Shown piece after piece: positions 1-58,340 of a stretch of 64,000 bases of DNA (position 1 is the first letter of the stretch; each line of letters opens with the position of its first letter). The notes below the pieces were generated by a model. That model searched no databases. It was not told the origin of the DNA and saw nothing but the letters and a program-made list of their open reading frames with translations. The translations under genes and the position numbers were made by a program. Location of the stretch: IMG/VR virus record IMGVR_UViG_3300045988_060960; one strand, 5' to 3'. Origin of the DNA: a virus.

Positions 1-585
1 CTTGGTCAGGTTGCCGAACTGGGTGTAGTTGCCGGCCAGCGTGATGTTCTCCGGCATAATCACCTTGTCGGCATCCACATTACCGGTGATGCTCACCCAG
101 TCCTCGCCGTCGAAACGGTAGGCGGTCATCTCATAGGTGATGCTGTCCACCACAGTGACCACAGCAAACATATCTCCGGCCTTCGGGGTAATGTCGCTGT
201 GCTCAGTGAAGTACGCCTCGATGACCGAAGCGTCGGTCGCTTCAAGGTCGGTCTTGGTGCCGGTGTACACCGCACCGCCGCCCACGCCGTTGAGCGCCTC
301 AGCCAGATCATCGTCGGTTACGTAGCCGTCCAGACTGACGGTGGTATCGTCGAGCAGCTCGACCACACCATCAATCAGGGCGTACACGTCGTAATGGCCG
401 GTCTCATCGTTGTGGACGAGGTACAGCACGTTTTCCTCAGCCGTGCCAGCGTCAGGCACGGTATCGGACTTCTGGAAGCGGGCGTGGCCCGCTTTGGAAA
501 TCGCGGCGAGATATTCCGTCTTAATGCGGGTCGCCGTGTCCTTCAGGGCTTTTACGTTTACGACCTTGGTCTCGTCATAAGCCAT
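1..585 (-). CDS. Tail fibre-like protein, N-terminal 195 codons only (cut by window edge)
   Basis: Exact mirror of 56898..57482(+), the first 585 nt of the 480-aa ORF 56898..58340. Confidence 0.7.
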   Translation of the reverse strand, partial: MAYDETKVVNVKALKDTATRIKTEYLAAISKAGHARFQKSDTVPDAGTAEENVLYLVHNDETGHYDVYALIDGVVELLDDTTVSLDGYVTDDDLAEALNGVGGGAVYTGTKTDLEATDASVIEAYFTEHSDITPKAGDMFAVVTVVDSITYEMTAYRFDGEDWVSITGNVDADKVIMPENITLAGNYTQFGNLTK

Positions 586-606
586 ATTTCGGTCTCCTCC
601 TATTTC

Positions 607-1653
607 TTAGTTTTGCGGTTCGTTTTCCTCGGGCGGGAACACCTCGTCAAGCATCTGCTCCGTGTCGCCGGTGGTCACGATGGCCTCGTCGGGAAGGCCG
701 GAGCCTTCATACGAGAGTGTGCCATCGGGCGTGGTGGAGAATCCGTCGCCGAGTTTTACGCCGCCCAAGCGGTCCTTAGTTGCTACTGGCAATACATAGG
801 TGCCACCCCCTCCACTGATGCCGCCGTCGGCAGACAGCAACACGAGGGTAGCCGCCATGTCCTCCGTCGGCGCTTGCTGCACCCAGAACCGCACAGCGCC
901 GTCAAGCACACGGGAAGATGTGCTCATGCCGGCTGCCTTTGCGATATTCTGGGCGGCTTTATGCAACATGACCTGCGGAATCAAGCCCTCAACAGCCTCC
1001 TCAACGGGGAGGTCCAGATAAAGCTCTCCTTCCACAATGTCTTCTGCATCTTCCAAATCCGCGCTGCTGGCCCAGCCGGCGGCGGGAATCGTGATTTCGA
1101 CCTCGGCCACATCGCCACCGCCGCCCAGACTGCCGCCGTGGGCGTTGGGGTCTGAGTTGTGGTCGGCAATCATCTGCTGCACCTGAGAAACGGTGGCGAT
1201 GGCCTCCGGGTCGATGATCGCAGTGACGGCATCTACGTCACCAACTGCGGCGATGAGGTCAAACGTGGCGAGCTTGCCAACGATGGAGCTGGCAGGCCGA
1301 ATCCACTCCGGTTCGTTTTCAAGGGACAGATAGGTGAACGGGACTTCGCCCTCATCCGGGTCCTCGGCGAACAGCACGATGTTCGTCAGGTAGAAACCCG
1401 CCGCCACGTTGTCGCTTTTGATTTGCACCGTGACTTGGCACTCGCCGTCCACGGGATTGGTGACTGCGGCAATCATCGCATCCATGACGTAGCCAGCAGG
1501 CTCCATCATGGTCTTGGGCGTCAAACCCTCTGGAATCTGGCCGCTGCCTGCTGCCGCCCTCGTGTATTTCATCGAGCATCTACCCGCGAGGACTTTTCCA
1601 ATCAGGCTCACGCCGGTGAGGGAACCGTAGCTCCCGTCTTCAAACTTGGACAT
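607..1653 (-). CDS. Tail fibre protein (P2 gpH N-terminal-like); mirror copy
   Basis: Exact mirror of 55830..56876(+); identical 348-aa ORF in track. Confidence 0.7.
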   Translation of the reverse strand: MSKFEDGSYGSLTGVSLIGKVLAGRCSMKYTRAAAGSGQIPEGLTPKTMMEPAGYVMDAMIAAVTNPVDGECQVTVQIKSDNVAAGFYLTNIVLFAEDPDEGEVPFTYLSLENEPEWIRPASSIVGKLATFDLIAAVGDVDAVTAIIDPEAIATVSQVQQMIADHNSDPNAHGGSLGGGGDVAEVEITIPAAGWASSADLEDAEDIVEGELYLDLPVEEAVEGLIPQVMLHKAAQNIAKAAGMSTSSRVLDGAVRFWVQQAPTEDMAATLVLLSADGGISGGGGTYVLPVATKDRLGGVKLGDGFSTTPDGTLSYEGSGLPDEAIVTTGDTEQMLDEVFPPEENEPQN

Positions 1654-1668
1654 AATCGCTCCTCCTTC

Positions 1669-2511
1669 TTAATCAATTCTTTTGGCCTTGATTCGCGTGT
1701 GATAGACAGCCCCTCCTGCGCCGTCCTGGCGGCCTCTGTGCGCCCTCCTTTCTGGGGGCGGGGTAGATGTCACGGTAGGTGTCTGAACGGCTCCACGCAA
1801 GAGCTGGACGGGCATCTGGGCGGTTCTATCAGCACTGAACGGAGGAGGCTCGAATTTCGCCCCCGCAAACCCGCCGAAGTGGACGCCCAGCACGTCTGTG
1901 CTTTCTCTGTCTTGGCTCACCGGCACAGCGGACACATCGGCGTCCACAAACCCGCAGTGCAGCAAAGTCAGGTCATAGCGGTAGGTGCGGTAGGTGCGAA
2001 GATAAAGCCGCATCCCGACACCGGCCACCAGAATACGCTTGATGGCATAGGCTATCGGCTCGATCAGTTCCTCCCGATCGGGAGAAAGCAGAGCCATATC
2101 CACGTACAGAGCAATCTTGGCTGGGAATACATCATCCAGTTCAACATCGCTCTGCTCTACATCAAGCAGCATAGCTGCCGCCCGAATTACCGTATCTGTG
2201 TCGCCGCCCGAAAGCTGCGCCATGATTTTCACTTTGATTGCGAGGCGGTAAAACCTATCATCAGAGCTGACCCGCTTGACGCCAAAATTCGCGCCGTAGC
2301 GGTCAAGCACAGAGCCGCAGGCATAGTCGAGGTCATCCCACAGCTTTACCAGCGCAGCCTGCTCCTCGACAGTTTCGAGGCCCCACGCCAGAATCGAAAA
2401 TAGCTTTCCGATAACGGTTTCCAGCGGTAGGCCCAGCTTCACATTGTCGTAGTCTTTTCTGCTGTACGCACTGGTCAGCGCATACAGCATTTTGGAAAGG
2501 AACTTATTCAT
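1669..2511 (-). CDS. Baseplate wedge/tail protein, XkdU position; mirror copy
   Basis: Exact mirror of 54972..55814(+); identical 280-aa ORF. Confidence 0.6.
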   Translation of the reverse strand: MNKFLSKMLYALTSAYSRKDYDNVKLGLPLETVIGKLFSILAWGLETVEEQAALVKLWDDLDYACGSVLDRYGANFGVKRVSSDDRFYRLAIKVKIMAQLSGGDTDTVIRAAAMLLDVEQSDVELDDVFPAKIALYVDMALLSPDREELIEPIAYAIKRILVAGVGMRLYLRTYRTYRYDLTLLHCGFVDADVSAVPVSQDRESTDVLGVHFGGFAGAKFEPPPFSADRTAQMPVQLLRGAVQTPTVTSTPPPERRAHRGRQDGAGGAVYHTRIKAKRID

Positions 2512-3686
2512 GCGACCACCACCATGCTCTCATCCGTTACCGCTTTCTCGCGGGCGGCGATGGTGATGTTTTTCCAGCTAAAAGTCTCTCCGTCCGAGCT
2601 GATTTGCAGGTCGAAGTCTACGACACCTTGGACCTTGAAAACCTCGGTGGGCAGGGCCACGCACACGACGTTTTGGCCGATGTTCAGGCCGCCGCGCGTG
2701 TCGGAACCGATGTACTCGGTAAGCCGCTGCTTGATTTGCTCCACGCCGTCCAACGGAAAGGTGTTGTCAGTTTGGAGGTTGAACACCTTGATCCACACGT
2801 TCACCGGAGTGGGCCGGCTGAAGTTGATGGCCTTGATCCGCCCGGAGGCGTCCACGACCGGCACAGATACGTTTCCGTAGGTCTGGATGCCGGCACCTTT
2901 CCGGCGGTGGATAGTGGTGGCGATGGATTCATCCAGCCCTCCGTACACCACCAGCTCTATGGAATGGGGCGGCAAGCCGCTGGCGTTTATTTCGTCGGTA
3001 TCATTTTCCTCTCCGGTTACAGCTATGACGGCTTCTACGTTCTCGTAGATCGCCGCGATAATCGCGTCAATGTTGACGCCGCCGGCAAAATCCGTAGAGA
3101 TGTAATACCGGGCGCGGAACTCAGCATCAGTCTCTGTGTTCCGCCCGCCCTCGAACGGAGCAGCGTTTGACACGGCGGAGATACCGTTCTTCGGGTTGGT
3201 GATAACTGTAATCGTCCCCGCTTCTGTATTGCCATCGGGGCCAGCTACGACTGCGGAAGCCGGAAGCGTAATGCTCCCATCCAAAATCACGCCAGACTGA
3301 AGCGTTATATATTGCTGGCCCGCGATAGTCTCGGCAAGGTAGCCTTCCGGGACCTCCGCGCCTATCTCGCCTGTAAAGGTGAGGTAGCCCACGGCTTTCT
3401 GCGCCCCCAGCAGCCGCAGCCCAATCGCTCGACCGAGGTTGTACAGGCTGTGGCCGACTGCGGTATCAACGAACCGGCTATTGTAGACATCTTCTAGGGT
3501 CGAGAACAGGAGGTTGAGCATCCATGCAAAAATCCGCAGGAAGATACCGAGCGGAGAGCGCACGGTAAGGTTTGCTTTTGAACCGAACAGCTCTCTGGCC
3601 TTGTATTCGAGCGCGTCCAGTAGTTCAGCGTAAGTGGGGCGTCTAAAACCGGCGTCAGTCAAGCCCCAGTCCGTTGTTTTTGCCAT
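2508..3686 (-). CDS. Baseplate J-like protein (XkdT-like); mirror copy
   Basis: Exact mirror of 53797..54975(+); identical 392-aa ORF. Confidence 0.75.
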   Translation of the reverse strand: MAKTTDWGLTDAGFRRPTYAELLDALEYKARELFGSKANLTVRSPLGIFLRIFAWMLNLLFSTLEDVYNSRFVDTAVGHSLYNLGRAIGLRLLGAQKAVGYLTFTGEIGAEVPEGYLAETIAGQQYITLQSGVILDGSITLPASAVVAGPDGNTEAGTITVITNPKNGISAVSNAAPFEGGRNTETDAEFRARYYISTDFAGGVNIDAIIAAIYENVEAVIAVTGEENDTDEINASGLPPHSIELVVYGGLDESIATTIHRRKGAGIQTYGNVSVPVVDASGRIKAINFSRPTPVNVWIKVFNLQTDNTFPLDGVEQIKQRLTEYIGSDTRGGLNIGQNVVCVALPTEVFKVQGVVDFDLQISSDGETFSWKNITIAAREKAVTDESMVVVA

Positions 3687-4057
3687 TATGCTGTCACCTC
3701 CAATGTGATAGTTTCGCCGTTCACCAACGTAGCTGAGAAAGCCACGGAGACCTCTCTGCGCTCACAGGATACGGACATCGAATCAATGCGGGATACATCT
3801 GGCTCTTGGAAAATAGCCTCCCGCATGATCTCTTTGATCTCCTCCTCATCCACGTCGTTCTGATTTACACCGAGAATCCGTTCATAGTCCGTGCCGTGCG
3901 TTTCGTCGGCAAAGAACTCGGCTTTCCACGTCAGGAGAGCGTGACGGACATTTTGAACCGTAGTGTCCCGGTCAAAAATCTTCTGGAAGTGACCATCCTC
4001 GTCCAGAACAAGGTCTCGAGTTTCTGGGTCAATCAGCAGTGTCATGTTGTCTCCCAC
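3686..4057 (-). CDS. Small baseplate protein, XkdS position; mirror copy
   Basis: Exact mirror of 53426..53797(+). Confidence 0.55.
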   Translation of the reverse strand: MGDNMTLLIDPETRDLVLDEDGHFQKIFDRDTTVQNVRHALLTWKAEFFADETHGTDYERILGVNQNDVDEEEIKEIMREAIFQEPDVSRIDSMSVSCERREVSVAFSATLVNGETITLEVTA

Positions 4058-4070
4058 GTGAATCACCTCC

Positions 4071-4667
4071 CTACATAGGTTCACCGGTTACGCCGCCGGA
4101 ATCGCCAAGGTGTTTGTGGTGCGCCCCGCTGACGCGCTCCTCAGAAACGACGTCTTTTGAAGCTGTGATTTTCCCTTCCACATGGACGTCGCCCAAGATT
4201 TGCACCCCGGCCTTCGTGACTGCAACATAAACACTACCGTCGTCCGTTGCGAGAACGAGGCTCTCGCCGGGAAGACCCCGCACCGCGTAGTCACCCGCCA
4301 CGATTCCGCCGATGAAAACAGCGTCCGTGGTTGCGTGGTTTCGTTCGGTGAGCGGTTGAGCTTCTTTGCCTCCGCTCACCGTACTGTCCATATCGTGATC
4401 GAGATAGACCACCACTCCCACGTCGCCCGCTTTTATCCAAGGGCGTATGATAAACCCGCCGCTCCGAGTGCAAGCGACGGGTATGCTCAGAATGGGAGGT
4501 TGGCTTTCATACTTCCCGTTCTGCAAATGTTTCGACAGGGGCTGTACATCCACCGTCATCTTGGCTGGGTCGAATGACTTGACCGACACGACTGCCGCCA
4601 CGCAAATGGATTCAGCCAGCTTCCGGTCGTGAATTTGCTGGTAGTTATATGGCTTTACGTTTGCCAC
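4071..4667 (-). CDS. Baseplate central spike protein (gpV/Gp138-N-like); mirror copy
   Basis: Exact mirror of 52816..53412(+). Confidence 0.65.
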   Translation of the reverse strand: MANVKPYNYQQIHDRKLAESICVAAVVSVKSFDPAKMTVDVQPLSKHLQNGKYESQPPILSIPVACTRSGGFIIRPWIKAGDVGVVVYLDHDMDSTVSGGKEAQPLTERNHATTDAVFIGGIVAGDYAVRGLPGESLVLATDDGSVYVAVTKAGVQILGDVHVEGKITASKDVVSEERVSGAHHKHLGDSGGVTGEPM

Positions 4668-4679
4668 CGGCACACCTCC

Positions 4680-5522
4680 TCAGTACGGTCGCAGCTCCAT
4701 CGAAGTCTCCCAGTCACTTGTCCTGCCGCCGCTATGCTTGCCTTCCACGACAATAAAGCGGCCATTCAGGTCAGCAGACTGAATTTTGATGACCTCTGCG
4801 GTTGCCACACGATAGTTGAGCAGGCAGGAGCGGGAAATAGTGTCTTCCTCCCGGTCCTCCCCAGTTGTCTGCGAGTTCAGGTCGGTTTCAACGGGAATCT
4901 GAACCTTTTCCTCATCTGCTCTGAGCAGCCCGTTCGAGGGCGTCAAGGTCAATCCGTTGTCGATTCCGTCATCGGACTTGGTGATGTAGATTTGCCCCGT
5001 AGTCCGTATGATGAAACGGCTCTTGCACTCATTCACCACGATCTCCGTCAGAACCTGCTTCAGATTTCCCCGGCATACCCGCCCACGCGGATAACTCACG
5101 TCGGTGGTCAGCTCGCATTTTGAGACCTCGACGCCGAAGATGTTCAGCAGGTCTTTCACAATGGCTGACGCCTTAGAGTTCTGCACGTAGGTCTTGTTGA
5201 TGAGCTTGCCGAGGATTTCATCGGCACAAGGCTGTATCGTCAGCGTGGAGGTCCAGTCCACATTGGACTGCTTGTGCTTCAGGCCGACTACTTTCCCAAT
5301 CAGGATGCAGCCGACATCGCCTTCGTATCCCGCATTGAGGATGACGGGGTCCTTTTTCTTGATGCCGGCGCGAGTATTGGCGGAGAGGTTCGTCACCGTC
5401 ACCGTAGCCACCGGCGGCTCATCGCTGTCATCAAACGGGATGCTGAACTTGAAATCCAGATCCGCAAGTGAATATTTCTTGTTCCCGATAACCAGCGTGG
5501 CTTCCCGAATCCAAAACGCCAT
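4680..5522 (-). CDS. Baseplate hub/tail protein, XkdQ position; mirror copy
   Basis: Exact mirror of 51961..52803(+); identical 280-aa ORF. Confidence 0.55.
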   Translation of the reverse strand: MAFWIREATLVIGNKKYSLADLDFKFSIPFDDSDEPPVATVTVTNLSANTRAGIKKKDPVILNAGYEGDVGCILIGKVVGLKHKQSNVDWTSTLTIQPCADEILGKLINKTYVQNSKASAIVKDLLNIFGVEVSKCELTTDVSYPRGRVCRGNLKQVLTEIVVNECKSRFIIRTTGQIYITKSDDGIDNGLTLTPSNGLLRADEEKVQIPVETDLNSQTTGEDREEDTISRSCLLNYRVATAEVIKIQSADLNGRFIVVEGKHSGGRTSDWETSMELRPY

Positions 5523-5523
5523 A

Positions 5524-5880
5524 TCACTCCACCTTCCTTTCGTAGAGGTAGAGCTTGACTTCTTTTCCGAAGTTCTCCGGCGTTACCTCCGAGATTTCCT
5601 CGCCGGTTATGCAGACGGGGATGATGACAGGCAGCGGAAACCGCTCGTCTTCTACCACGTTGAACAGCGCCCTGCCGTAGCGAATAACCTCGCCAAATAC
5701 CAAAACGTCGCCGTTCAGGTCCAGCAGGTCAACGGTGAAGAACTTGCCGATCTCGTTGTACTTGACAGTGAACGTGTATGTCTTATCCGTCAGCTTGACA
5801 GAGAATGAGTACGGCACTTTCGACACATCAATGTTGATGTACTCAATGTCCTCGTTCAGGTCAATCAGTTGCAGCGCCAC
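5524..5880 (-). CDS. Hypothetical tail/baseplate protein; mirror copy
   Basis: Exact mirror of 51603..51959(+); identical 118-aa ORF. Confidence 0.6.
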   Translation of the reverse strand: MALQLIDLNEDIEYINIDVSKVPYSFSVKLTDKTYTFTVKYNEIGKFFTVDLLDLNGDVLVFGEVIRYGRALFNVVEDERFPLPVIIPVCITGEEISEVTPENFGKEVKLYLYERKVE

Positions 5881-5895
5881 ACTCTATCACCTCCG

Positions 5896-6492
5896 TCAGT
5901 TGGCTTCCAGACCGTCATAGCCGCCCGTGCTCCGCGTAAGCGGAGCCGAGCTGCTCGGCGTATCATAGGCTTCTCTGTACCGCTCTGCGCTTGCGGAGCT
6001 GACCGATTGCAGAGAAACCGTTGTCATTCCCACACTGGCTGTTTGCGCCAGCTGCTGGTTATCTGTTTTGCCGGCGTCCTGACTGGACATCAGCACTTCC
6101 GAATCCATCGGCACGAATTCAGAAGAAACCAGCCGTACTTGTTTCAGCGTGGCCGAGAAGGACGCGCCGTTTCTGTTCTTATAGCTGCGGTCAAATTTCA
6201 GACTGGTAAAGACGAGGTTTGCCATGCGGGTCACGCCGGTGTACGTGATGATATCCCGCGAATCCCGCATGGCTTTCAGTGCGTTGATCGCGCTGTCCCC
6301 GCCCACGATGGTGCCTGAAATAGTCAGCTGCCCCGCAGCGTTGTTCACGTGGTCGTTGATATCAGCCCCGCTCTCCACGGGGTTCGAGGTGACAGAGCTG
6401 CTGTAACTCTCACTCTCTTTCTCGACCACACCGTTCTCGAAAGGTACGAAACGAACTGTCCCGCCCTTTCTACCGGTGAGCGTATACGCCAT
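5896..6492 (-). CDS. Tail/baseplate protein, XkdP position; mirror copy
   Basis: Exact mirror of 50991..51587(+); identical 198-aa ORF. Confidence 0.6.
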   Translation of the reverse strand: MAYTLTGRKGGTVRFVPFENGVVEKESESYSSSVTSNPVESGADINDHVNNAAGQLTISGTIVGGDSAINALKAMRDSRDIITYTGVTRMANLVFTSLKFDRSYKNRNGASFSATLKQVRLVSSEFVPMDSEVLMSSQDAGKTDNQQLAQTASVGMTTVSLQSVSSASAERYREAYDTPSSSAPLTRSTGGYDGLEAN

Positions 6493-6506
6493 TCCGACAC
6501 CTCCTA

Positions 6507-9422: not shown

Positions 9423-9441
9423 ACATCATCCCTCCTTTCCA

Positions 9442-9675
9442 TCAGGATTTTTTATTCCACTCATTTTGCCACAGGAGGCGGGCCTGCTCAGCTTCTGTAA
9501 ACTCAAACAGATCCATTTCTTTCAGCTCTGTATAGCTGATTCCCCCCATGCAGAATGTCATCCGCCAAAAGCGTTCATTCCTGCGCGCTCGTTTCTCGGC
9601 GGCTTTAGGATTTTGCTCGCTCCGCAAGAAAGTTTTCGATCTCGCGTACCAGCTCACCCGGCGTTGCGAGATCAT
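9442..9675 (-). CDS. Overlapping +1-frame ORF downstream of tail assembly chaperone (possible frameshift extension); mirror copy
   Basis: Exact mirror of 47808..48041(+). Confidence 0.35.
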   Translation of the reverse strand: MISQRRVSWYARSKTFLRSEQNPKAAEKRARRNERFWRMTFCMGGISYTELKEMDLFEFTEAEQARLLWQNEWNKKS

Positions 9676-9886
9676 CCTGATCGTCGAAGTAACGGATTCC
9701 GCCCTTCGAGACTTCCACGGGCGCAGTTACGCAGCCCTTGATGAGTGCGTCCGCGTATTTCGCGGTATTCTTTCTTCCATTGGCGGGGTTGATGTAGAGG
9801 TCAGTCAGGTTCGAGTACCACGAAAAGGTGACACTCTGAAGCTGGTAATCCACGCCACCGACGGTGACTGTTTTAGTACGGGCCAT
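9605..9886 (-). CDS. Tail assembly chaperone (XkdN position); mirror copy
   Basis: Exact mirror of 47597..47878(+); identical 93-aa ORF. Confidence 0.6.
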   Translation of the reverse strand: MARTKTVTVGGVDYQLQSVTFSWYSNLTDLYINPANGRKNTAKYADALIKGCVTAPVEVSKGGIRYFDDQDDLATPGELVREIENFLAERAKS

Positions 9887-10213
9887 AGGTCAACACTCCT
9901 TCTGAAACATTCAGCCGTTTCGCGCGCGCGTACTATGCACGAATTAGGCGTATTAGAGAGAATAGGCGTATACGTGCTGCACACGAATACGCCTAAATAC
10001 TCTATTTTAGATATTATTAGGAATAAATGTTTCAATGTTTCAAAACGGTCAAAACCCCAGTAAATACGGGGATTTTGGGTGAAACATTGCCGATACATTG
10101 GCGAAACTTTGAAACATTCGGGGGCTGAAACATTGGGTTGAATTTCCCGCCTAAACTTCGACTTTCGTGTCTAATGTTAGACTTTAATTCAGATGTATCA
10201 CCCCAATGTTTCA
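9887..10213. repeat. Non-coding motif array (TGAAACATT/AATGTTTCA x7, 33-nt near-palindrome, (CG)5); mirror copy
   Basis: Exact mirror of 47270..47596; see that entry. Confidence 0.85.
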
Positions 10214-10606: not shown

Positions 10607-10625
10607 AGTTTCTCACACTCCTTCT

Positions 10626-12107: not shown

Positions 12108-12122
12108 AAGGCTTCCTCCTTC

Positions 12123-46857: not shown

Positions 46858-46876
46858 AGAAGGAGTGTGAGAAACT

Positions 46877-48041: not shown

Positions 48042-48060
48042 TGGAAAGGAGGGATGATGT

Positions 48061-50976: not shown

Positions 50977-50990
50977 TAGGAGGTGTCGGA

Positions 50991-51587
50991 ATGGCGTATA
51001 CGCTCACCGGTAGAAAGGGCGGGACAGTTCGTTTCGTACCTTTCGAGAACGGTGTGGTCGAGAAAGAGAGTGAGAGTTACAGCAGCTCTGTCACCTCGAA
51101 CCCCGTGGAGAGCGGGGCTGATATCAACGACCACGTGAACAACGCTGCGGGGCAGCTGACTATTTCAGGCACCATCGTGGGCGGGGACAGCGCGATCAAC
51201 GCACTGAAAGCCATGCGGGATTCGCGGGATATCATCACGTACACCGGCGTGACCCGCATGGCAAACCTCGTCTTTACCAGTCTGAAATTTGACCGCAGCT
51301 ATAAGAACAGAAACGGCGCGTCCTTCTCGGCCACGCTGAAACAAGTACGGCTGGTTTCTTCTGAATTCGTGCCGATGGATTCGGAAGTGCTGATGTCCAG
51401 TCAGGACGCCGGCAAAACAGATAACCAGCAGCTGGCGCAAACAGCCAGTGTGGGAATGACAACGGTTTCTCTGCAATCGGTCAGCTCCGCAAGCGCAGAG
51501 CGGTACAGAGAAGCCTATGATACGCCGAGCAGCTCGGCTCCGCTTACGCGGAGCACGGGCGGCTATGACGGTCTGGAAGCCAACTGA
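50991..51587 (+). CDS. Tail/baseplate protein, XkdP position (198 aa)
   Basis: First gene after the tape measure; no LysM motif recognised; strong SD. Confidence 0.6.
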   Translation: MAYTLTGRKGGTVRFVPFENGVVEKESESYSSSVTSNPVESGADINDHVNNAAGQLTISGTIVGGDSAINALKAMRDSRDIITYTGVTRMANLVFTSLKFDRSYKNRNGASFSATLKQVRLVSSEFVPMDSEVLMSSQDAGKTDNQQLAQTASVGMTTVSLQSVSSASAERYREAYDTPSSSAPLTRSTGGYDGLEAN

Positions 51588-51602
51588 CGGAGGTGATAGA
51601 GT

Positions 51603-51959
51603 GTGGCGCTGCAACTGATTGACCTGAACGAGGACATTGAGTACATCAACATTGATGTGTCGAAAGTGCCGTACTCATTCTCTGTCAAGCTGACGGATAA
51701 GACATACACGTTCACTGTCAAGTACAACGAGATCGGCAAGTTCTTCACCGTTGACCTGCTGGACCTGAACGGCGACGTTTTGGTATTTGGCGAGGTTATT
51801 CGCTACGGCAGGGCGCTGTTCAACGTGGTAGAAGACGAGCGGTTTCCGCTGCCTGTCATCATCCCCGTCTGCATAACCGGCGAGGAAATCTCGGAGGTAA
51901 CGCCGGAGAACTTCGGAAAAGAAGTCAAGCTCTACCTCTACGAAAGGAAGGTGGAGTGA
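51603..51959 (+). CDS. Hypothetical tail/baseplate protein (118 aa)
   Basis: GTG start behind GGAGGTG; position in the baseplate block. Confidence 0.6.
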   Translation: MALQLIDLNEDIEYINIDVSKVPYSFSVKLTDKTYTFTVKYNEIGKFFTVDLLDLNGDVLVFGEVIRYGRALFNVVEDERFPLPVIIPVCITGEEISEVTPENFGKEVKLYLYERKVE

Positions 51960-51960
51960 T

Positions 51961-52803
51961 ATGGCGTTTTGGATTCGGGAAGCCACGCTGGTTATCGGGA
52001 ACAAGAAATATTCACTTGCGGATCTGGATTTCAAGTTCAGCATCCCGTTTGATGACAGCGATGAGCCGCCGGTGGCTACGGTGACGGTGACGAACCTCTC
52101 CGCCAATACTCGCGCCGGCATCAAGAAAAAGGACCCCGTCATCCTCAATGCGGGATACGAAGGCGATGTCGGCTGCATCCTGATTGGGAAAGTAGTCGGC
52201 CTGAAGCACAAGCAGTCCAATGTGGACTGGACCTCCACGCTGACGATACAGCCTTGTGCCGATGAAATCCTCGGCAAGCTCATCAACAAGACCTACGTGC
52301 AGAACTCTAAGGCGTCAGCCATTGTGAAAGACCTGCTGAACATCTTCGGCGTCGAGGTCTCAAAATGCGAGCTGACCACCGACGTGAGTTATCCGCGTGG
52401 GCGGGTATGCCGGGGAAATCTGAAGCAGGTTCTGACGGAGATCGTGGTGAATGAGTGCAAGAGCCGTTTCATCATACGGACTACGGGGCAAATCTACATC
52501 ACCAAGTCCGATGACGGAATCGACAACGGATTGACCTTGACGCCCTCGAACGGGCTGCTCAGAGCAGATGAGGAAAAGGTTCAGATTCCCGTTGAAACCG
52601 ACCTGAACTCGCAGACAACTGGGGAGGACCGGGAGGAAGACACTATTTCCCGCTCCTGCCTGCTCAACTATCGTGTGGCAACCGCAGAGGTCATCAAAAT
52701 TCAGTCTGCTGACCTGAATGGCCGCTTTATTGTCGTGGAAGGCAAGCATAGCGGCGGCAGGACAAGTGACTGGGAGACTTCGATGGAGCTGCGACCGTAC
52801 TGA
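51961..52803 (+). CDS. Baseplate hub/tail protein, XkdQ position (280 aa)
   Basis: Gene order matches the PBSX xkdO-P-Q-R-S-T-U series. The N-terminal pattern ATLVIGNKKYSLADLDFKFSIPF...VTVTNLSANTRAGIKKKDPVILNAGYEGD is typical of this tail-protein class. Confidence 0.55.
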   Translation: MAFWIREATLVIGNKKYSLADLDFKFSIPFDDSDEPPVATVTVTNLSANTRAGIKKKDPVILNAGYEGDVGCILIGKVVGLKHKQSNVDWTSTLTIQPCADEILGKLINKTYVQNSKASAIVKDLLNIFGVEVSKCELTTDVSYPRGRVCRGNLKQVLTEIVVNECKSRFIIRTTGQIYITKSDDGIDNGLTLTPSNGLLRADEEKVQIPVETDLNSQTTGEDREEDTISRSCLLNYRVATAEVIKIQSADLNGRFIVVEGKHSGGRTSDWETSMELRPY

Positions 52804-52815
52804 GGAGGTGTGCCG

Positions 52816-53412
52816 GTGGCAAACGTAAAGCCATATAACTACCAGCAAATTCACGACCGGAAGCTGGCTGAATCCATTTGCGTGGCGGCAGTCGTGTCGG
52901 TCAAGTCATTCGACCCAGCCAAGATGACGGTGGATGTACAGCCCCTGTCGAAACATTTGCAGAACGGGAAGTATGAAAGCCAACCTCCCATTCTGAGCAT
53001 ACCCGTCGCTTGCACTCGGAGCGGCGGGTTTATCATACGCCCTTGGATAAAAGCGGGCGACGTGGGAGTGGTGGTCTATCTCGATCACGATATGGACAGT
53101 ACGGTGAGCGGAGGCAAAGAAGCTCAACCGCTCACCGAACGAAACCACGCAACCACGGACGCTGTTTTCATCGGCGGAATCGTGGCGGGTGACTACGCGG
53201 TGCGGGGTCTTCCCGGCGAGAGCCTCGTTCTCGCAACGGACGACGGTAGTGTTTATGTTGCAGTCACGAAGGCCGGGGTGCAAATCTTGGGCGACGTCCA
53301 TGTGGAAGGGAAAATCACAGCTTCAAAAGACGTCGTTTCTGAGGAGCGCGTCAGCGGGGCGCACCACAAACACCTTGGCGATTCCGGCGGCGTAACCGGT
53401 GAACCTATGTAG
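52816..53412 (+). CDS. Baseplate central spike protein (gpV / Gp138 N-terminal-like, 198 aa)
   Basis: VVSVKSFDPAKMTVDVQPL...PILSIPVAC...IIRPWIKAGDVGVVVYLDHDMD matches the OB-fold spike pattern. The C-terminal HHKHLGDSGG is a His-rich tip-like motif. GTG 52816 is preferred on SD spacing; the track uses GTG 52810. Confidence 0.65.
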   Translation: MANVKPYNYQQIHDRKLAESICVAAVVSVKSFDPAKMTVDVQPLSKHLQNGKYESQPPILSIPVACTRSGGFIIRPWIKAGDVGVVVYLDHDMDSTVSGGKEAQPLTERNHATTDAVFIGGIVAGDYAVRGLPGESLVLATDDGSVYVAVTKAGVQILGDVHVEGKITASKDVVSEERVSGAHHKHLGDSGGVTGEPM

Positions 53413-53425
53413 GGAGGTGATTCAC

Positions 53426-53797
53426 GTGGGAGACAACATGACACTGCTGATTGACCCAGAAACTCGAGACCTTGTTCTGGACGAGGATGGTCACTTCCAG
53501 AAGATTTTTGACCGGGACACTACGGTTCAAAATGTCCGTCACGCTCTCCTGACGTGGAAAGCCGAGTTCTTTGCCGACGAAACGCACGGCACGGACTATG
53601 AACGGATTCTCGGTGTAAATCAGAACGACGTGGATGAGGAGGAGATCAAAGAGATCATGCGGGAGGCTATTTTCCAAGAGCCAGATGTATCCCGCATTGA
53701 TTCGATGTCCGTATCCTGTGAGCGCAGAGAGGTCTCCGTGGCTTTCTCAGCTACGTTGGTGAACGGCGAAACTATCACATTGGAGGTGACAGCATAA
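53426..53797 (+). CDS. Small baseplate protein, XkdS position (about 123 aa)
   Basis: MTLLIDPETRDLVLDEDGHFQKI...VQNVRHALLTWKAEFFADETHG resembles the XkdS/gp25-neighbour family. The start is either GTG 53426 or ATG 53438. Confidence 0.55.
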   Translation: MGDNMTLLIDPETRDLVLDEDGHFQKIFDRDTTVQNVRHALLTWKAEFFADETHGTDYERILGVNQNDVDEEEIKEIMREAIFQEPDVSRIDSMSVSCERREVSVAFSATLVNGETITLEVTA

Positions 53798-54975
53798 TGG
53801 CAAAAACAACGGACTGGGGCTTGACTGACGCCGGTTTTAGACGCCCCACTTACGCTGAACTACTGGACGCGCTCGAATACAAGGCCAGAGAGCTGTTCGG
53901 TTCAAAAGCAAACCTTACCGTGCGCTCTCCGCTCGGTATCTTCCTGCGGATTTTTGCATGGATGCTCAACCTCCTGTTCTCGACCCTAGAAGATGTCTAC
54001 AATAGCCGGTTCGTTGATACCGCAGTCGGCCACAGCCTGTACAACCTCGGTCGAGCGATTGGGCTGCGGCTGCTGGGGGCGCAGAAAGCCGTGGGCTACC
54101 TCACCTTTACAGGCGAGATAGGCGCGGAGGTCCCGGAAGGCTACCTTGCCGAGACTATCGCGGGCCAGCAATATATAACGCTTCAGTCTGGCGTGATTTT
54201 GGATGGGAGCATTACGCTTCCGGCTTCCGCAGTCGTAGCTGGCCCCGATGGCAATACAGAAGCGGGGACGATTACAGTTATCACCAACCCGAAGAACGGT
54301 ATCTCCGCCGTGTCAAACGCTGCTCCGTTCGAGGGCGGGCGGAACACAGAGACTGATGCTGAGTTCCGCGCCCGGTATTACATCTCTACGGATTTTGCCG
54401 GCGGCGTCAACATTGACGCGATTATCGCGGCGATCTACGAGAACGTAGAAGCCGTCATAGCTGTAACCGGAGAGGAAAATGATACCGACGAAATAAACGC
54501 CAGCGGCTTGCCGCCCCATTCCATAGAGCTGGTGGTGTACGGAGGGCTGGATGAATCCATCGCCACCACTATCCACCGCCGGAAAGGTGCCGGCATCCAG
54601 ACCTACGGAAACGTATCTGTGCCGGTCGTGGACGCCTCCGGGCGGATCAAGGCCATCAACTTCAGCCGGCCCACTCCGGTGAACGTGTGGATCAAGGTGT
54701 TCAACCTCCAAACTGACAACACCTTTCCGTTGGACGGCGTGGAGCAAATCAAGCAGCGGCTTACCGAGTACATCGGTTCCGACACGCGCGGCGGCCTGAA
54801 CATCGGCCAAAACGTCGTGTGCGTGGCCCTGCCCACCGAGGTTTTCAAGGTCCAAGGTGTCGTAGACTTCGACCTGCAAATCAGCTCGGACGGAGAGACT
54901 TTTAGCTGGAAAAACATCACCATCGCCGCCCGCGAGAAAGCGGTAACGGATGAGAGCATGGTGGTGGTCGCATGA
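53797..54975 (+). CDS. Baseplate J-like protein (XkdT-like, 392 aa)
   Basis: The N-terminus (GFRRPTYAELLDALEYKARELFG...) and overall size are typical of the Baseplate_J family. Synteny also supports the call. Confidence 0.75.
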   Translation: MAKTTDWGLTDAGFRRPTYAELLDALEYKARELFGSKANLTVRSPLGIFLRIFAWMLNLLFSTLEDVYNSRFVDTAVGHSLYNLGRAIGLRLLGAQKAVGYLTFTGEIGAEVPEGYLAETIAGQQYITLQSGVILDGSITLPASAVVAGPDGNTEAGTITVITNPKNGISAVSNAAPFEGGRNTETDAEFRARYYISTDFAGGVNIDAIIAAIYENVEAVIAVTGEENDTDEINASGLPPHSIELVVYGGLDESIATTIHRRKGAGIQTYGNVSVPVVDASGRIKAINFSRPTPVNVWIKVFNLQTDNTFPLDGVEQIKQRLTEYIGSDTRGGLNIGQNVVCVALPTEVFKVQGVVDFDLQISSDGETFSWKNITIAAREKAVTDESMVVVA

Positions 54976-55814
54976 ATAAGTTCCTTTCCAAAATGCTGTA
55001 TGCGCTGACCAGTGCGTACAGCAGAAAAGACTACGACAATGTGAAGCTGGGCCTACCGCTGGAAACCGTTATCGGAAAGCTATTTTCGATTCTGGCGTGG
55101 GGCCTCGAAACTGTCGAGGAGCAGGCTGCGCTGGTAAAGCTGTGGGATGACCTCGACTATGCCTGCGGCTCTGTGCTTGACCGCTACGGCGCGAATTTTG
55201 GCGTCAAGCGGGTCAGCTCTGATGATAGGTTTTACCGCCTCGCAATCAAAGTGAAAATCATGGCGCAGCTTTCGGGCGGCGACACAGATACGGTAATTCG
55301 GGCGGCAGCTATGCTGCTTGATGTAGAGCAGAGCGATGTTGAACTGGATGATGTATTCCCAGCCAAGATTGCTCTGTACGTGGATATGGCTCTGCTTTCT
55401 CCCGATCGGGAGGAACTGATCGAGCCGATAGCCTATGCCATCAAGCGTATTCTGGTGGCCGGTGTCGGGATGCGGCTTTATCTTCGCACCTACCGCACCT
55501 ACCGCTATGACCTGACTTTGCTGCACTGCGGGTTTGTGGACGCCGATGTGTCCGCTGTGCCGGTGAGCCAAGACAGAGAAAGCACAGACGTGCTGGGCGT
55601 CCACTTCGGCGGGTTTGCGGGGGCGAAATTCGAGCCTCCTCCGTTCAGTGCTGATAGAACCGCCCAGATGCCCGTCCAGCTCTTGCGTGGAGCCGTTCAG
55701 ACACCTACCGTGACATCTACCCCGCCCCCAGAAAGGAGGGCGCACAGAGGCCGCCAGGACGGCGCAGGAGGGGCTGTCTATCACACGCGAATCAAGGCCA
55801 AAAGAATTGATTAA
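54972..55814 (+). CDS. Baseplate wedge/tail protein, XkdU position (280 aa)
   Basis: ATGA overlap with the baseplate J gene; position equivalent to P2 gpI / XkdU. Confidence 0.6.
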   Translation: MNKFLSKMLYALTSAYSRKDYDNVKLGLPLETVIGKLFSILAWGLETVEEQAALVKLWDDLDYACGSVLDRYGANFGVKRVSSDDRFYRLAIKVKIMAQLSGGDTDTVIRAAAMLLDVEQSDVELDDVFPAKIALYVDMALLSPDREELIEPIAYAIKRILVAGVGMRLYLRTYRTYRYDLTLLHCGFVDADVSAVPVSQDRESTDVLGVHFGGFAGAKFEPPPFSADRTAQMPVQLLRGAVQTPTVTSTPPPERRAHRGRQDGAGGAVYHTRIKAKRID

Positions 55815-55829
55815 GAAGGAGGAGCGATT

Positions 55830-56876
55830 ATGTCCAAGTTTGAAGACGGGAGCTACGGTTCCCTCACCGGCGTGAGCCTGATTGGAAAAGTCCTCGCGGG
55901 TAGATGCTCGATGAAATACACGAGGGCGGCAGCAGGCAGCGGCCAGATTCCAGAGGGTTTGACGCCCAAGACCATGATGGAGCCTGCTGGCTACGTCATG
56001 GATGCGATGATTGCCGCAGTCACCAATCCCGTGGACGGCGAGTGCCAAGTCACGGTGCAAATCAAAAGCGACAACGTGGCGGCGGGTTTCTACCTGACGA
56101 ACATCGTGCTGTTCGCCGAGGACCCGGATGAGGGCGAAGTCCCGTTCACCTATCTGTCCCTTGAAAACGAACCGGAGTGGATTCGGCCTGCCAGCTCCAT
56201 CGTTGGCAAGCTCGCCACGTTTGACCTCATCGCCGCAGTTGGTGACGTAGATGCCGTCACTGCGATCATCGACCCGGAGGCCATCGCCACCGTTTCTCAG
56301 GTGCAGCAGATGATTGCCGACCACAACTCAGACCCCAACGCCCACGGCGGCAGTCTGGGCGGCGGTGGCGATGTGGCCGAGGTCGAAATCACGATTCCCG
56401 CCGCCGGCTGGGCCAGCAGCGCGGATTTGGAAGATGCAGAAGACATTGTGGAAGGAGAGCTTTATCTGGACCTCCCCGTTGAGGAGGCTGTTGAGGGCTT
56501 GATTCCGCAGGTCATGTTGCATAAAGCCGCCCAGAATATCGCAAAGGCAGCCGGCATGAGCACATCTTCCCGTGTGCTTGACGGCGCTGTGCGGTTCTGG
56601 GTGCAGCAAGCGCCGACGGAGGACATGGCGGCTACCCTCGTGTTGCTGTCTGCCGACGGCGGCATCAGTGGAGGGGGTGGCACCTATGTATTGCCAGTAG
56701 CAACTAAGGACCGCTTGGGCGGCGTAAAACTCGGCGACGGATTCTCCACCACGCCCGATGGCACACTCTCGTATGAAGGCTCCGGCCTTCCCGACGAGGC
56801 CATCGTGACCACCGGCGACACGGAGCAGATGCTTGACGAGGTGTTCCCGCCCGAGGAAAACGAACCGCAAAACTAA
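55830..56876 (+). CDS. Tail fibre protein with P2 gpH-like N-terminal domain (348 aa)
   Basis: The N-terminal ~150 aa follow the gpH/tail-collar fibre N-domain layout (KYTRAAAGSGQIPEG...FYLTNIVLFAEDPDEGEVPFTY...ATFDLIAAVGDVDAVTAII). It is the first gene after the baseplate. Confidence 0.7.
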   Translation: MSKFEDGSYGSLTGVSLIGKVLAGRCSMKYTRAAAGSGQIPEGLTPKTMMEPAGYVMDAMIAAVTNPVDGECQVTVQIKSDNVAAGFYLTNIVLFAEDPDEGEVPFTYLSLENEPEWIRPASSIVGKLATFDLIAAVGDVDAVTAIIDPEAIATVSQVQQMIADHNSDPNAHGGSLGGGGDVAEVEITIPAAGWASSADLEDAEDIVEGELYLDLPVEEAVEGLIPQVMLHKAAQNIAKAAGMSTSSRVLDGAVRFWVQQAPTEDMAATLVLLSADGGISGGGGTYVLPVATKDRLGGVKLGDGFSTTPDGTLSYEGSGLPDEAIVTTGDTEQMLDEVFPPEENEPQN

Positions 56877-56897
56877 GAAATAGGAGGAGACCGAAAT

Positions 56898-58340
56898 ATG
56901 GCTTATGACGAGACCAAGGTCGTAAACGTAAAAGCCCTGAAGGACACGGCGACCCGCATTAAGACGGAATATCTCGCCGCGATTTCCAAAGCGGGCCACG
57001 CCCGCTTCCAGAAGTCCGATACCGTGCCTGACGCTGGCACGGCTGAGGAAAACGTGCTGTACCTCGTCCACAACGATGAGACCGGCCATTACGACGTGTA
57101 CGCCCTGATTGATGGTGTGGTCGAGCTGCTCGACGATACCACCGTCAGTCTGGACGGCTACGTAACCGACGATGATCTGGCTGAGGCGCTCAACGGCGTG
57201 GGCGGCGGTGCGGTGTACACCGGCACCAAGACCGACCTTGAAGCGACCGACGCTTCGGTCATCGAGGCGTACTTCACTGAGCACAGCGACATTACCCCGA
57301 AGGCCGGAGATATGTTTGCTGTGGTCACTGTGGTGGACAGCATCACCTATGAGATGACCGCCTACCGTTTCGACGGCGAGGACTGGGTGAGCATCACCGG
57401 TAATGTGGATGCCGACAAGGTGATTATGCCGGAGAACATCACGCTGGCCGGCAACTACACCCAGTTCGGCAACCTGACCAAGAACGCGGACGGCACCGCC
57501 ACTCTCAGCTCTAAGGGCAAGAGTGTGCTGGACGTGTTCACCGAAATCCTGAGCAAACGCCTTCAGCCCACTATCACCGCCCAGCCCAGCATCAGCGGGT
57601 TCAACCTGTCCGGTGCGAAGGCTGTGGAGGCCGGCACCTCTCTGGCGTCTGCTGCGTATACGGCAGGCAATCTGAACCCCGGCAGCTACCAGTACGGCCC
57701 GGAGACCGGTGTCACCGCCTCCAACTGGGTGGTGCAGCGTATCACTGACGGCGGCACTGAGCAGATTGCCAGCGTGGACGCTGCCAGCCTGAGCGCCGGT
57801 TCCGATAACAATGGCGGCGATGGCTTTATCATCGGAGACCAGGGCGGCGAGAACGTCGTGGCGTCCCTGAAGTACAAGGCCATCGCCACTCACGGCGCTG
57901 GTGTGACTGCCAACGACAACCTCGGCAGCGCCTCTGACCCTGCCGTGAACATCGCTTCCGGTACGAAGGAGAAGACCACCGGGGCCTACACGCCCTACCG
58001 GAACTACTTCTACGGGGCCACCACAGAGAAGCCCACCGTTGACAGTGCCTACATCCGGGGTCTGACCAAGAGCAACAAGGCGTATGCCGCCGGTACGCTG
58101 ACTATCAACGTCCCTGCCGGGGCGCAGCGTGTGGTCATCGCCTGCATCGCTGGCAAGACCGGCGTGACCAAGGTCATCAACGAGACCGCGATGAACGCCG
58201 ACGTGACCGGCACCTTTACGCAGTCTTCCGTCAATGTCGAGGGCGCTGAGGGCTACACCGCCGTTGCGTACAACGTGTGGGTGTTTGAGCCTGCTGTGCC
58301 TTACGAGAACGCCGCGACCCTGAAGGTCACGCTGGGCTGA
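56898..58340 (+). CDS. Tail fibre-like protein (480 aa)
   Basis: Strong SD; Thr/Gly/Ala-rich beta-type composition. The N-terminus MAYDETKVVNVKALKDTATRIKTEYLAAI is shared in pattern with the 58741 protein. The palindrome boundary (57482) falls inside this gene only because of the window edge. Confidence 0.7.
   Translation: MAYDETKVVNVKALKDTATRIKTEYLAAISKAGHARFQKSDTVPDAGTAEENVLYLVHNDETGHYDVYALIDGVVELLDDTTVSLDGYVTDDDLAEALNGVGGGAVYTGTKTDLEATDASVIEAYFTEHSDITPKAGDMFAVVTVVDSITYEMTAYRFDGEDWVSITGNVDADKVIMPENITLAGNYTQFGNLTKNADGTATLSSKGKSVLDVFTEILSKRLQPTITAQPSISGFNLSGAKAVEAGTSLASAAYTAGNLNPGSYQYGPETGVTASNWVVQRITDGGTEQIASVDAASLSAGSDNNGGDGFIIGDQGGENVVASLKYKAIATHGAGVTANDNLGSASDPAVNIASGTKEKTTGAYTPYRNYFYGATTEKPTVDSAYIRGLTKSNKAYAAGTLTINVPAGAQRVVIACIAGKTGVTKVINETAMNADVTGTFTQSSVNVEGAEGYTAVAYNVWVFEPAVPYENAATLKVTLG

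What the first reader, a model, noticed from the sequence alone, without database searches (positions are those of the whole stretch)
1..57482. The window is one giant perfect palindrome: arms of at least 28,741 bp meet with zero spacer at 28741|28742
Every position x in 1..57482 is the reverse complement of 57483-x. I checked this directly at the apex (...GTCACACGGGGTA|TACCCCGTGTGAC...) and at the outer edge (1-40 versus 57443-57482). Every six-frame ORF also occurs as an identical-length, identical-sequence pair whose coordinates sum to 57483; for example, the 971-aa tape measure is at 6507..9422(-) and 48061..50976(+). I see no mismatch anywhere and no loop at the apex. The symmetry stops only at the left window edge, so 57483..64000 probably also has a mirror image upstream of the window. 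About 35 phage genes are therefore duplicated head to head. No gene annotation explains this structure. I see two competing explanations. (a) It is a fold-back or inverted-duplication chimera from amplification (MDA), library preparation (a long read running through a hairpin adapter) or assembly. This is the most parsimonious reading given 0 percent divergence. (b) It is read-through of a covalently closed hairpin telomere, or a head-to-head replicative dimer, of a linear phage or plasmid-prophage genome (N15/PY54/phiKO2-type biology). In that case the apex would be the telomere-resolution site. No protelomerase gene is in this window. The apex lies in non-coding DNA 126 bp upstream of a terminator, not at an obvious module boundary. 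Long perfect palindromes are unstable in most bacteria (SbcCD/replication slippage), which argues against stable chromosomal maintenance.
Basis: partly seen in the sequence, partly recalled or inferred. Interest (0 to 1): 0.85.

Follow-up and report, generated by a model that had tools for sequence, protein, structure and literature searches.

The report
Fold-back chimera at a natural palindrome
The 57-kb perfect mirror image is really in the sequence, but it turns round on a small natural palindrome in DNA next to an integrated gut prophage, so it is most likely a sequencing or assembly fold-back and not a hairpin end of a linear phage genome.

Summary
Positions 1-57482 are an exact reverse-complement palindrome with 0 mismatches and its apex at 28741|28742.

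The hairpin-telomere reading fails. The apex is not a phage end. The prophage starts at a TT crossover (28837-28838). Beyond it, seven other assemblies of the same phage carry seven different flanks, and two carry the circular attP junction. The phage (about 61 kb) encodes a large serine recombinase and no detectable protelomerase.

The 95 bp between the apex and the phage is foreign flank. It is 98% identical to an unrelated gut phage-like element. In 22 independent contigs of that element the apex sequence is the centre of a natural 28-bp perfect palindrome (AGTCACACGGGGTA|TACCCCGTGTGACT) with unlike flanks, read straight through.

So the giant palindrome was seeded by the only strong short palindrome in the region. 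This fits snap-back or template-switch chimeras made during amplification or library preparation, or a low-k assembler turning round. One MEGAHIT contig of the identical locus keeps only 30 nt of fold-back.

Verdict: most likely a technical artefact (about 0.8). A rare inverted dimer formed in the cell is the main rival. Interest is low.

The parts
1..28741 (-). Left arm: exact reverse complement of 28742-57482. It holds a mirror copy of the flank and of the first 28.6 kb or so of the prophage.
   Evidence: 0 mismatches.
28742..57482 (+). Right arm. This is the orientation in which the flank and prophage occur in other assemblies.
   Evidence: L002 (ENA k119_67851) is 100% identical over 21,721 bp.
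28728..28755 (.). Natural 28-bp perfect palindrome AGTCACACGGGGTA|TACCCCGTGTGACT. Its centre is the apex of the giant palindrome.
   Evidence: The palindrome sits with unlike flanks inside L001 and 21 gut metagenome contigs. As single-stranded DNA the 26-nt core folds at -12.7 kcal/mol, z = -5.7.
28742..28836 (+). 95 bp of non-phage flanking DNA (mirror copy at 28647-28741). It belongs to an unrelated phage-like element, the 'L001 type'.
   Evidence: It is 98% identical to MT837738.1 and to 21 metagenome contigs, and the homology ends at the att crossover. Other assemblies of the phage have different DNA here.
28837..28838 (+). TT crossover dinucleotide of the integration junction (mirror copy at 28645-28646).
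   Evidence: TT is invariant at 11 near-end junctions (8 different flanks plus the circular attP form) and at 8 far-end junctions of relatives.
28839..28862 (+). Prophage near-end arm of attP, GATAGATAGCTGAATTTGCCTATA.
   Evidence: This arm is shared by all contigs. In the circular junctions (L050/L051) it faces the imperfect inverted arm TATAGGCAAATAGAGCTAACCATC across TT.
28869..28894 (+). Terminator-like GC hairpin plus T run, just inside the phage end.
   Evidence: Sequence read. It is conserved in all contigs.
28922..29539 (+). First phage gene, 205 aa, with weak similarity to NTP pyrophosphohydrolases.
36839..38299 (+). Terminase large subunit.
   Evidence: Terminase_6N/6C and phrog_979 at 1.7e-151.
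38312..40432 (+). Portal protein fused to a Mu-F-like domain.
48061..50976 (+). 971-aa ORF, called tape measure protein from its position only.
   Evidence: It has no family hit and lies just upstream of the Dit-like gene.
60133..62232 (+). 699-aa tail-fibre-like target gene of the diversity-generating retroelement (DGR), with the variable repeat at 62078-62218. It lies outside the mirrored part.
62319..63818 (+). DGR reverse transcriptase, with the template repeat at 62338-62478.
   Evidence: RVT_1 hit. All 17 TR/VR differences fall at A positions of the TR.

Best explanation
The giant palindrome is a fold-back (inverted-duplication) chimera and not a feature of the phage genome. Each arm consists of 95 bp of foreign flanking DNA, a TT integration crossover, and an integrated temperate prophage of about 61 kb. 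The prophage is myovirus-like and carries a DGR. It inserts at many sites, presumably through its large serine recombinase (the enzyme assignment is inferred). The turning point is the exact centre of a natural 28-bp perfect palindrome in that flank.

Inferred mechanism, in one or both of two forms. (1) A strand ending in or passing through this palindrome snapped back on itself, or a polymerase switched strands there. This would have happened during amplification, end repair or another library step, and the strand was then copied, giving molecules or reads that run from the phage through the flank and back. (2) An assembler using k shorter than the palindrome met self-complementary k-mers where the true left flank had little or no coverage. 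It then walked back along the same path.

Either way the two arms come from the same reads, so 0% divergence follows by construction.
For: Shown directly:
- The palindrome is exact.
- The apex is the centre of a natural palindrome that has unlike flanks in L001 and in 21 independent gut contigs. None of these ends or folds there.
- It is the only zero-spacer palindrome with arms of 8 nt or more in the unique arm, and it forms a stable DNA hairpin.
- The phage boundary lies 95 bp inside the arm. Seven other contigs (L052, L053, L055-L059) have seven different flanks up to the same TT, and two contigs (L050, L051) show the circular attP junction.
- Relatives show far-end junctions to different bacterial genes after the same ...CTATC-TT.
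- More than ten assemblies of the phage are 60-62 kb single copies.
- The MEGAHIT contig of the 100%-identical locus (L002/L054) carries only 30 nt of fold-back. The JGI contig stops, by coordinate arithmetic, before the apex.
- Contig ends with other flanks show no fold-back.

From the literature:
- More than 85% of MDA chimeras are inverted and prime at short complementary stretches (PMC1855051).
- Whole-genome amplification gives artificial palindromic long reads (PMC6218980).
- Long-read fold-back artefacts are documented (PMC12870357).
- Library preparation produces chimeric reads at natural inverted repeats and palindromes (PMC10908179).
- Exactly mirrored 'palindromic contigs' in single-cell assemblies have been removed as very likely assembly artefacts (PMC12755884).
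Against: - No raw reads or coverage are available, so I cannot tell a library chimera from an assembler error, and I cannot exclude real molecules.
- The 30-nt fold-back in L002/L054 goes 16 nt beyond the natural palindrome. That implies at least some reads in that sample contained the fold-back junction, so it is not purely an in-silico effect there.
- That assembly did not continue into the natural left flank, which is unexplained.
- The window, L002, L003 and L004 are 100% identical, so they may not be independent samples.
Confidence: 0.8

Rival explanations
1. A real inverted dimer formed in the cell. The natural palindrome extrudes or stalls a replication fork, for example during in-situ replication of the induced prophage. 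Template switching, or a hairpin-capped break that is then replicated, would give a head-to-head duplication of flank plus prophage. This would be a rare or transient molecule picked up by the assembler.
For: - The apex lies exactly on a perfect palindrome, the substrate expected for such events.
- L024 carries a tandem duplication of the 38-bp palindrome unit, so the site does rearrange in nature or in assembly.
- Reads with fold-back arms of at least 30 nt seem to exist in the sample behind L002/L054.
- The phage encodes VRR_NUC and PDDEXK nucleases.
- Palindrome-driven inverted duplications and hairpin-capped breaks are established in E. coli and yeast (own knowledge).
Against: - The 28-bp palindrome is short for cruciform extrusion in vivo (own knowledge).
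- None of 22 contigs holding the palindrome without the phage folds there.
- All other assemblies of the phage are single copies.
- Long perfect palindromes are unstable in bacteria (own knowledge).
- 0% divergence fits an artefact equally well.
Confidence: 0.12
2. The apex is a hairpin telomere (telomere-resolution site) of the flanking L001-type element. In this reading that element is a linear plasmid-prophage, the window's phage has inserted 95 bp from its end, and the contig wraps round the hairpin as PacBio contigs do in Borrelia.
For: - A perfect palindrome with zero spacer is what a tel site looks like.
- Wrap-around contigs at hairpin ends are documented (PMC10353223).
- Next to the 28-bp palindrome sits a second, overlapping 24-bp palindrome with repeated TGTGAC motifs, which could be protein-binding sites.
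Against: - All 22 contigs of the L001-type element read straight through the site into unlike flanks. They come from a faecal phage record and from gut metagenomes, and include contigs of 97 and 152 kb.
- No protelomerase was found in the 14 kb around the site. That stretch holds sigma factors, DUF4367, a helicase, a sliding clamp and lysins.
- On the opposite strand the palindromes are followed by a T run, which fits a terminator.
Confidence: 0.04
3. One reading: the window's phage is an N15-type linear phage, and the apex is its own hairpin telomere or the junction of a head-to-head replicative dimer.
For: Only the zero-spacer perfect palindrome and the three ParB_N-domain genes.
Against: - The apex is 95 bp outside the phage, in DNA that other copies of the phage do not have.
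- The circular attP junction and many host junctions are observed.
- A large serine recombinase is present.
- No gene of the roughly 61-kb genome has a protelomerase or tyrosine-recombinase Pfam hit on record.
- PHROGs and Pfam scans of 10 unannotated far-end genes, taken from a close relative (L040), found none either.
- The one large unknown protein (560 aa, 98%-identical representative modelled) matches no solved fold, so it gave no sign of a protelomerase fold.
- The ParB_N proteins sit in front of the terminase genes, one is fused to a methyltransferase, and no ParA was seen.
Confidence: 0.02

Closest known systems
Inverted (fold-back) chimeras of multiple displacement amplification, artificial palindromic reads and contigs (PMC1855051, PMC6218980, PMC12755884), and long-read fold-back artefacts (PMC12870357)
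   Same: The two halves are exact mirror images with no spacer and 0% divergence. The junction is primed at a short self-complementary sequence. Other assemblies of the same locus lack the duplication.
   Different: I do not know whether the source sample was amplified, or which platform and assembler were used. Random long-read fold-backs turn at fragment ends. This one turns exactly on a natural palindrome, which points to snap-back priming or k-mer ambiguity and away from a missed adapter.
Library-preparation chimeric reads at natural inverted repeats and palindromes (PDSM model, PMC10908179)
   Same: Short fold-back reads centred on a genomic palindrome would explain the 30-nt fold-back kept in the MEGAHIT contig L002/L054.
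   Different: Those artefacts were described as low-frequency reads in human capture libraries. Here an assembler would have had to extend one into a contig arm of at least 28.7 kb.
Wrap-around contigs at covalently closed hairpin telomeres (Borrelia, PMC10353223) and N15/PY54/phiKO2 telomere phages (own knowledge)
   Same: A long perfect inverted repeat with zero spacer, centred on a short palindromic site.
   Different: There is no protelomerase. The centre is not at a replicon end. The site is internal and read through in 22 contigs. The phage integrates by site-specific recombination.
Multi-targeting large serine recombinases with a TT core (Durrant et al. 2022, PMC10083194; TnpX/TndX-type, own knowledge)
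   Same: This applies to the prophage inside the arms, not to the palindrome. The attP consists of imperfect inverted arms of about 24 bp around TT. The 466-aa recombinase has the Resolvase, Recombinase and Zn_ribbon_recom domains. At least 8 unrelated flanks all join at TT.
   Different: No DUF4368 domain was detected. The recombinase gene lies about 24 kb from attP. That this enzyme makes the junctions is inferred.

Membership tests
N15-type hairpin-telomere (protelomerase) phage | Encodes a protelomerase (TelN/TelK/ResT family) | tested here: not met
   No gene across the whole genome of about 61 kb has such a Pfam hit on record. Pfam and PHROGs scans of 10 unannotated far-end genes of a close relative (L040) were negative. 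The 560-aa unknown protein (AF2 model, pLDDT 75) has no PDB fold match with E below 0.05. Sensitivity to very divergent enzymes is limited.
N15-type hairpin-telomere (protelomerase) phage | The palindrome centre is the end of the phage replicon (telL/telR) | tested here: not met
   The phage ends at the TT at 28837-28838. The 95 bp up to the apex are replaced by other DNA in 7 contigs and by the phage's far end in 2 circular junctions.
N15-type hairpin-telomere (protelomerase) phage | The prophage is kept as a linear plasmid and is not integrated | tested here: not met
   Junctions to different bacterial genes are seen at both ends, an attP junction is seen, and a large serine recombinase gene is present.
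Technical fold-back or palindromic chimera | The arms are identical and the junction lies on a short self-complementary sequence | tested here: met
   0 mismatches. The apex is the centre of the natural 28-bp palindrome.
Technical fold-back or palindromic chimera | Independent assemblies of the same locus lack the duplication | tested here: inconclusive
   L002/L054 keeps only 30 nt of fold-back, and the JGI contig none by coordinate arithmetic. The true left flank was not recovered for this insertion in any contig. Whether the samples are independent is unknown, because the sequences are 100% identical.
Technical fold-back or palindromic chimera | Raw reads or coverage do not support the junction at full depth | not testable with these tools
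   No reads, coverage or assembly metadata are available.
Large serine recombinase integration (multi-targeting type) | Recombinase with Resolvase, Recombinase and Zn_ribbon_recom domains; attP with imperfect inverted arms around a central dinucleotide that is kept at all junctions | tested here: met
   One search gives the domains. Searches give the attP arms (20 of 24 positions complementary, counted by eye) and the TT at 19 junctions. Catalysis by this enzyme is inferred.
Diversity-generating retroelement | Reverse transcriptase plus TR/VR pair whose differences are confined to adenines of the TR | tested here: met
   RVT_1 hit. The 141-nt repeat pair is 88% identical. All 17 differences fall at A positions of the TR.

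The most novel reading that the evidence does not exclude
The fold-back molecules are real. During prophage induction, replication through the perfect 28-bp palindrome in the neighbouring element, or its cleavage as a cruciform by phage nucleases, creates a hairpin-capped end. Once replicated, this becomes a head-to-head dimer of flank plus prophage. That would be a natural case of palindrome-driven inverted duplication caught in a gut metagenome.
Probability: 0.1. Interest if true: 0.5.

Novelty: not a real feature. Interest (0 to 1): 0.15.

Why it matters
Taken at face value, the contig would suggest a new hairpin-telomere phage in gut Clostridia, or a genome of about 120 kb with every gene duplicated. 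Showing that the turning point is a natural palindrome outside the prophage stops that mis-annotation. It also gives a practical rule for giant zero-spacer palindromes in metagenomic contigs: check whether the apex is a short natural palindrome that other assemblies read through. The genuine biology in the window is of known kinds. It is a widespread gut prophage of about 61 kb with a DGR and multi-site serine-recombinase integration, here inserted in another mobile element.

Tried and rejected
- IMG/VR scans for the palindrome core, a shorter core and the 39-nt flank found nothing.
- A GTDB genome scan for the core found nothing. The phage-end motif gave one hit, an uncultured Clostridia MAG, which I did not analyse further.
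- The phage and plasmid collections gave only unannotated faecal phage fragments and one irrelevant 57-bp hit.
- I could not fetch the far end of the very contigs that share the window's flank (ENA k119_67851, JGI Ga0252363_000220). The predicted far-end junction ...AACCATC-TT-GATAATAGGACTGC is therefore untested.
- An IMG/VR search with the DUF2800 protein gave only distant relatives.
- A Mu-like transposable-phage reading was considered because the flanks vary. I dropped it because no DDE transposase was found, an attP circle junction exists, TT is kept at the junctions, and a serine recombinase is present. Target-site duplication could not be checked, because no contig with both flanks was available.
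- I tested the 560-aa unknown protein as a cryptic protelomerase. The PDB profile search gave only zinc-finger noise and the fold search gave nothing significant.
- No tRNA lies at or near the apex.
- The idea that MEGAHIT's 30-nt remnant equals (59+1)/2, from its folding of palindromic unitigs, rests on my memory of the code and is unverified.


Full report
**Observation.** A direct comparison of every position x in 1..57482 with 57483-x gave 0 mismatches. The apex is ...AGTCACACGGGGTA|TACCCCGTGTGACT... at 28741|28742 with no spacer, and the symmetry runs to the left window edge. ORFs occur as mirrored pairs, and the right arm carries the genes on the + strand.

**What the arms contain.** The right arm is a phage. 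In order it encodes an NTP-pyrophosphohydrolase-like gene, DUF1848, a SAM-synthetase-like protein, three ParB_N-domain proteins (the last fused to a methyltransferase), small and large terminase, a portal fused to a Mu-F-like domain, a protease, a probable capsid protein (by position), a sheath-like protein, a 971-aa ORF that is tape measure by position only, baseplate proteins and a 699-aa fibre-like gene. Beyond the mirrored part the window holds a diversity-generating retroelement. It has a reverse transcriptase and a 141-nt TR/VR pair, and all 17 differences fall at adenines of the TR.

Look-ups of window proteins recovered the rest of the genome from other assemblies. It holds a lysin, a 466-aa large serine recombinase (Resolvase + Recombinase + Zn_ribbon_recom), CI/Cro-like regulators, SNF2, VRR_NUC, a VapE-type primase, DNA polymerase A, an Enc34-type ssDNA-binding protein, a PDDEXK nuclease and a block of small unknown genes with a PemK toxin. 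More than ten assemblies, made with different assemblers, give single-copy contigs of 60-62 kb.

**Where the phage ends.** I aligned the region upstream of the first gene in eleven contigs. All share TT-GATAGATAGCTGAATTTGCCTATACC... (window 28837 onward). Left of the TT, seven other contigs carry seven unrelated sequences. Two contigs carry the phage's own far end, which is the circular attP junction: TATAGGCAAATAGAGCTAACCATC-TT-GATAGATAGCTGAATTTGCCTATA, two imperfect inverted arms around TT. In close relatives the far end stops at ...GGCTATC-TT and is then followed by different bacterial genes in each contig: aminotransferase/TusA, an FMN oxidoreductase with an MFS transporter, Rrf2, and PrpR.

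This is the pattern of a temperate phage that integrates at many sites with a TT core. Multi-targeting large serine recombinases with this behaviour are already described (PMC10083194). That the 466-aa enzyme makes these junctions is inferred.

**What the apex is.** Window 28742-28836 is therefore not phage DNA. It is 98% identical to a faecal 'Bacteriophage sp.' scaffold (MT837738.1 = L001) and to 21 human-gut metagenome contigs that contain the exact 26-nt core. Homology ends at the att crossover. L001 shows the empty site GGTATAGTTTCCACC-TT-GATAATAGGACTGC.

In all 22 contigs the apex sequence is a natural 28-bp perfect palindrome (14-nt arms). Its flanks are unlike each other. On one side lies a second, overlapping 24-bp palindrome TGTGACTTGCATATGCAAGTCACA and the end of a sigma/anti-sigma operon. 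On the other side lie the 95 bp and a sigma-like gene. None of these contigs ends or folds at the site, and one (L024) has a tandem duplication of the 38-bp unit.

The palindrome is the only zero-spacer palindrome with arms of 8 nt or more in the unique arm. As single-stranded DNA the 26-nt core folds at -12.7 kcal/mol. The giant palindrome thus turns exactly on the one sequence in the region that can snap back on itself, 95 bp outside the prophage.

**Test of the telomere idea.**
- No gene of the genome has a protelomerase or tyrosine-recombinase Pfam hit on record.
- Pfam and PHROGs scans of ten unannotated far-end genes, taken from a close relative (L040), found none.
- The one large unknown protein (560 aa) has a conserved N-terminal domain and Cys-rich zinc-ribbon repeats. 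Its profile hits only zinc fingers in the PDB. An AlphaFold model of a 98%-identical representative (pLDDT 75) has no significant fold match, so there is no sign of a protelomerase fold.
- The apex is outside the phage, and the phage has circular and integrated forms.

A telomere belonging to the flanking element is also unlikely, because 22 of 22 contigs read through the site.

**How the fold-back most likely arose.** The MEGAHIT contig of the identical locus (L002/L054, ENA ERZ27263616) begins with a 60-nt perfect palindrome, which is 30 nt of fold-back, and then runs as a single copy for 62 kb. By coordinate arithmetic the JGI contig stops 43 nt short of the apex.

Thirty nucleotides is 16 more than the natural arm. 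Some reads in that sample therefore carried the fold-back junction. Thirty also equals (59+1)/2, the length I recall MEGAHIT keeping when it folds a palindromic unitig at k=59 (own recollection, unverified). Contig ends with other flanks show no fold-back.

Known sources fit this picture:
- MDA chimeras are mostly inverted and prime on short complementary stretches (PMC1855051).
- Amplification gives artificial palindromic long reads (PMC6218980).
- Long-read fold-back artefacts are documented (PMC12870357).
- Library preparation makes chimeric reads at natural inverted repeats and palindromes (PMC10908179).
- Exactly mirrored contigs in single-cell assemblies have been treated as artefacts (PMC12755884).

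An assembler using k below 28 could also turn round at the self-complementary k-mers if the true left flank had little coverage. Low flank coverage is plausible, because flank stubs in other contigs are only 50-95 nt long. I cannot separate these routes without reads.

**Rivals and verdict.** A real inverted dimer formed in the cell at the palindrome remains possible, at about 0.1. The site is a proper substrate, it rearranges in L024, and fold-back reads seem to exist. Against this, the palindrome is short, no other contig shows a fold-back, and long perfect palindromes are unstable. A telomere of the flanking element gets about 0.04, and a telomere of the phage about 0.02.

I conclude, at about 0.8, that the feature is a technical fold-back seeded by a natural palindrome in flanking DNA. 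Interest is low. The real biology in the window is a DGR-bearing prophage with multi-site integration, sitting in another mobile element, and it belongs to known kinds.

Noticed in passing
window 28837-28862; L050 about 9900-9960 (attP); L042-L048 far ends; L052-L059 near ends: The prophage integrates at many unrelated sites, always at a TT core. Its attP has imperfect inverted arms of about 24 bp. The flanks just before the TT are mostly pyrimidine-rich and weakly resemble the attP arm. This fits a multi-targeting large serine recombinase (PMC10083194), although the 466-aa recombinase gene lies about 24 kb from attP and no DUF4368 domain was detected.
   Followed up: partly
window 28742-28836; L001 4340-4500; L005-L025: The prophage copy in the window sits inside another mobile, phage-like element that encodes sigma factors, DUF4367, a helicase, a sliding clamp and CHAP and tail lysins. 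It lies 95 bp from two overlapping perfect palindromes (28 bp and 24 bp) that share GTCACA/TGTGAC motifs. On the opposite strand these are followed by TTTTCTTTCG, so they may form a terminator or an operator. L024 has a tandem duplication of the 38-bp unit.
   Followed up: partly
window 62078-62218 (VR), 62338-62478 (TR), 62319-63818 (RT): A canonical diversity-generating retroelement targets the C-terminus of the 699-aa fibre-like protein. All 17 TR/VR differences fall at TR adenines. Relatives differ in the RT gene call (398 or 499 aa, or no RT gene called).
   Followed up: yes
L040 7301-8983 (-); equivalents in L042-L051 (outside the window): A conserved protein of about 560 aa has no family or fold match. 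It has a helical and beta-strand N-terminal domain followed by about eight CxxC zinc-ribbon repeats. It always sits next to an M20/M28-like peptidase gene near the phage's far end, and in L050 it is split into 182-aa and 375-aa ORFs.
   Followed up: partly
window 33663-36431: Three consecutive ParB_N-domain genes lie directly upstream of the small terminase gene. The third is fused to a SAM-dependent methyltransferase. No ParA was seen, so they are probably not a partition system.
   Followed up: no
starts of L056-L059 and the JGI contig (near end): Contigs from different samples stop a near-constant 50-52 nt outside the TT crossover, each with a different flank. This is probably a k=55 graph effect at a branch, but a fixed packaging cut outside the prophage end would look the same.
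   Followed up: no
window 28712-64000 compared with L002, L003, L004: The window is 100.000% identical over 11-22 kb to contigs from ENA ERZ27263616, JGI 3300058045 and Logan ERR260171. Either one strain is shared between samples or the same data were assembled several times. This limits how independent the evidence is.
   Followed up: partly
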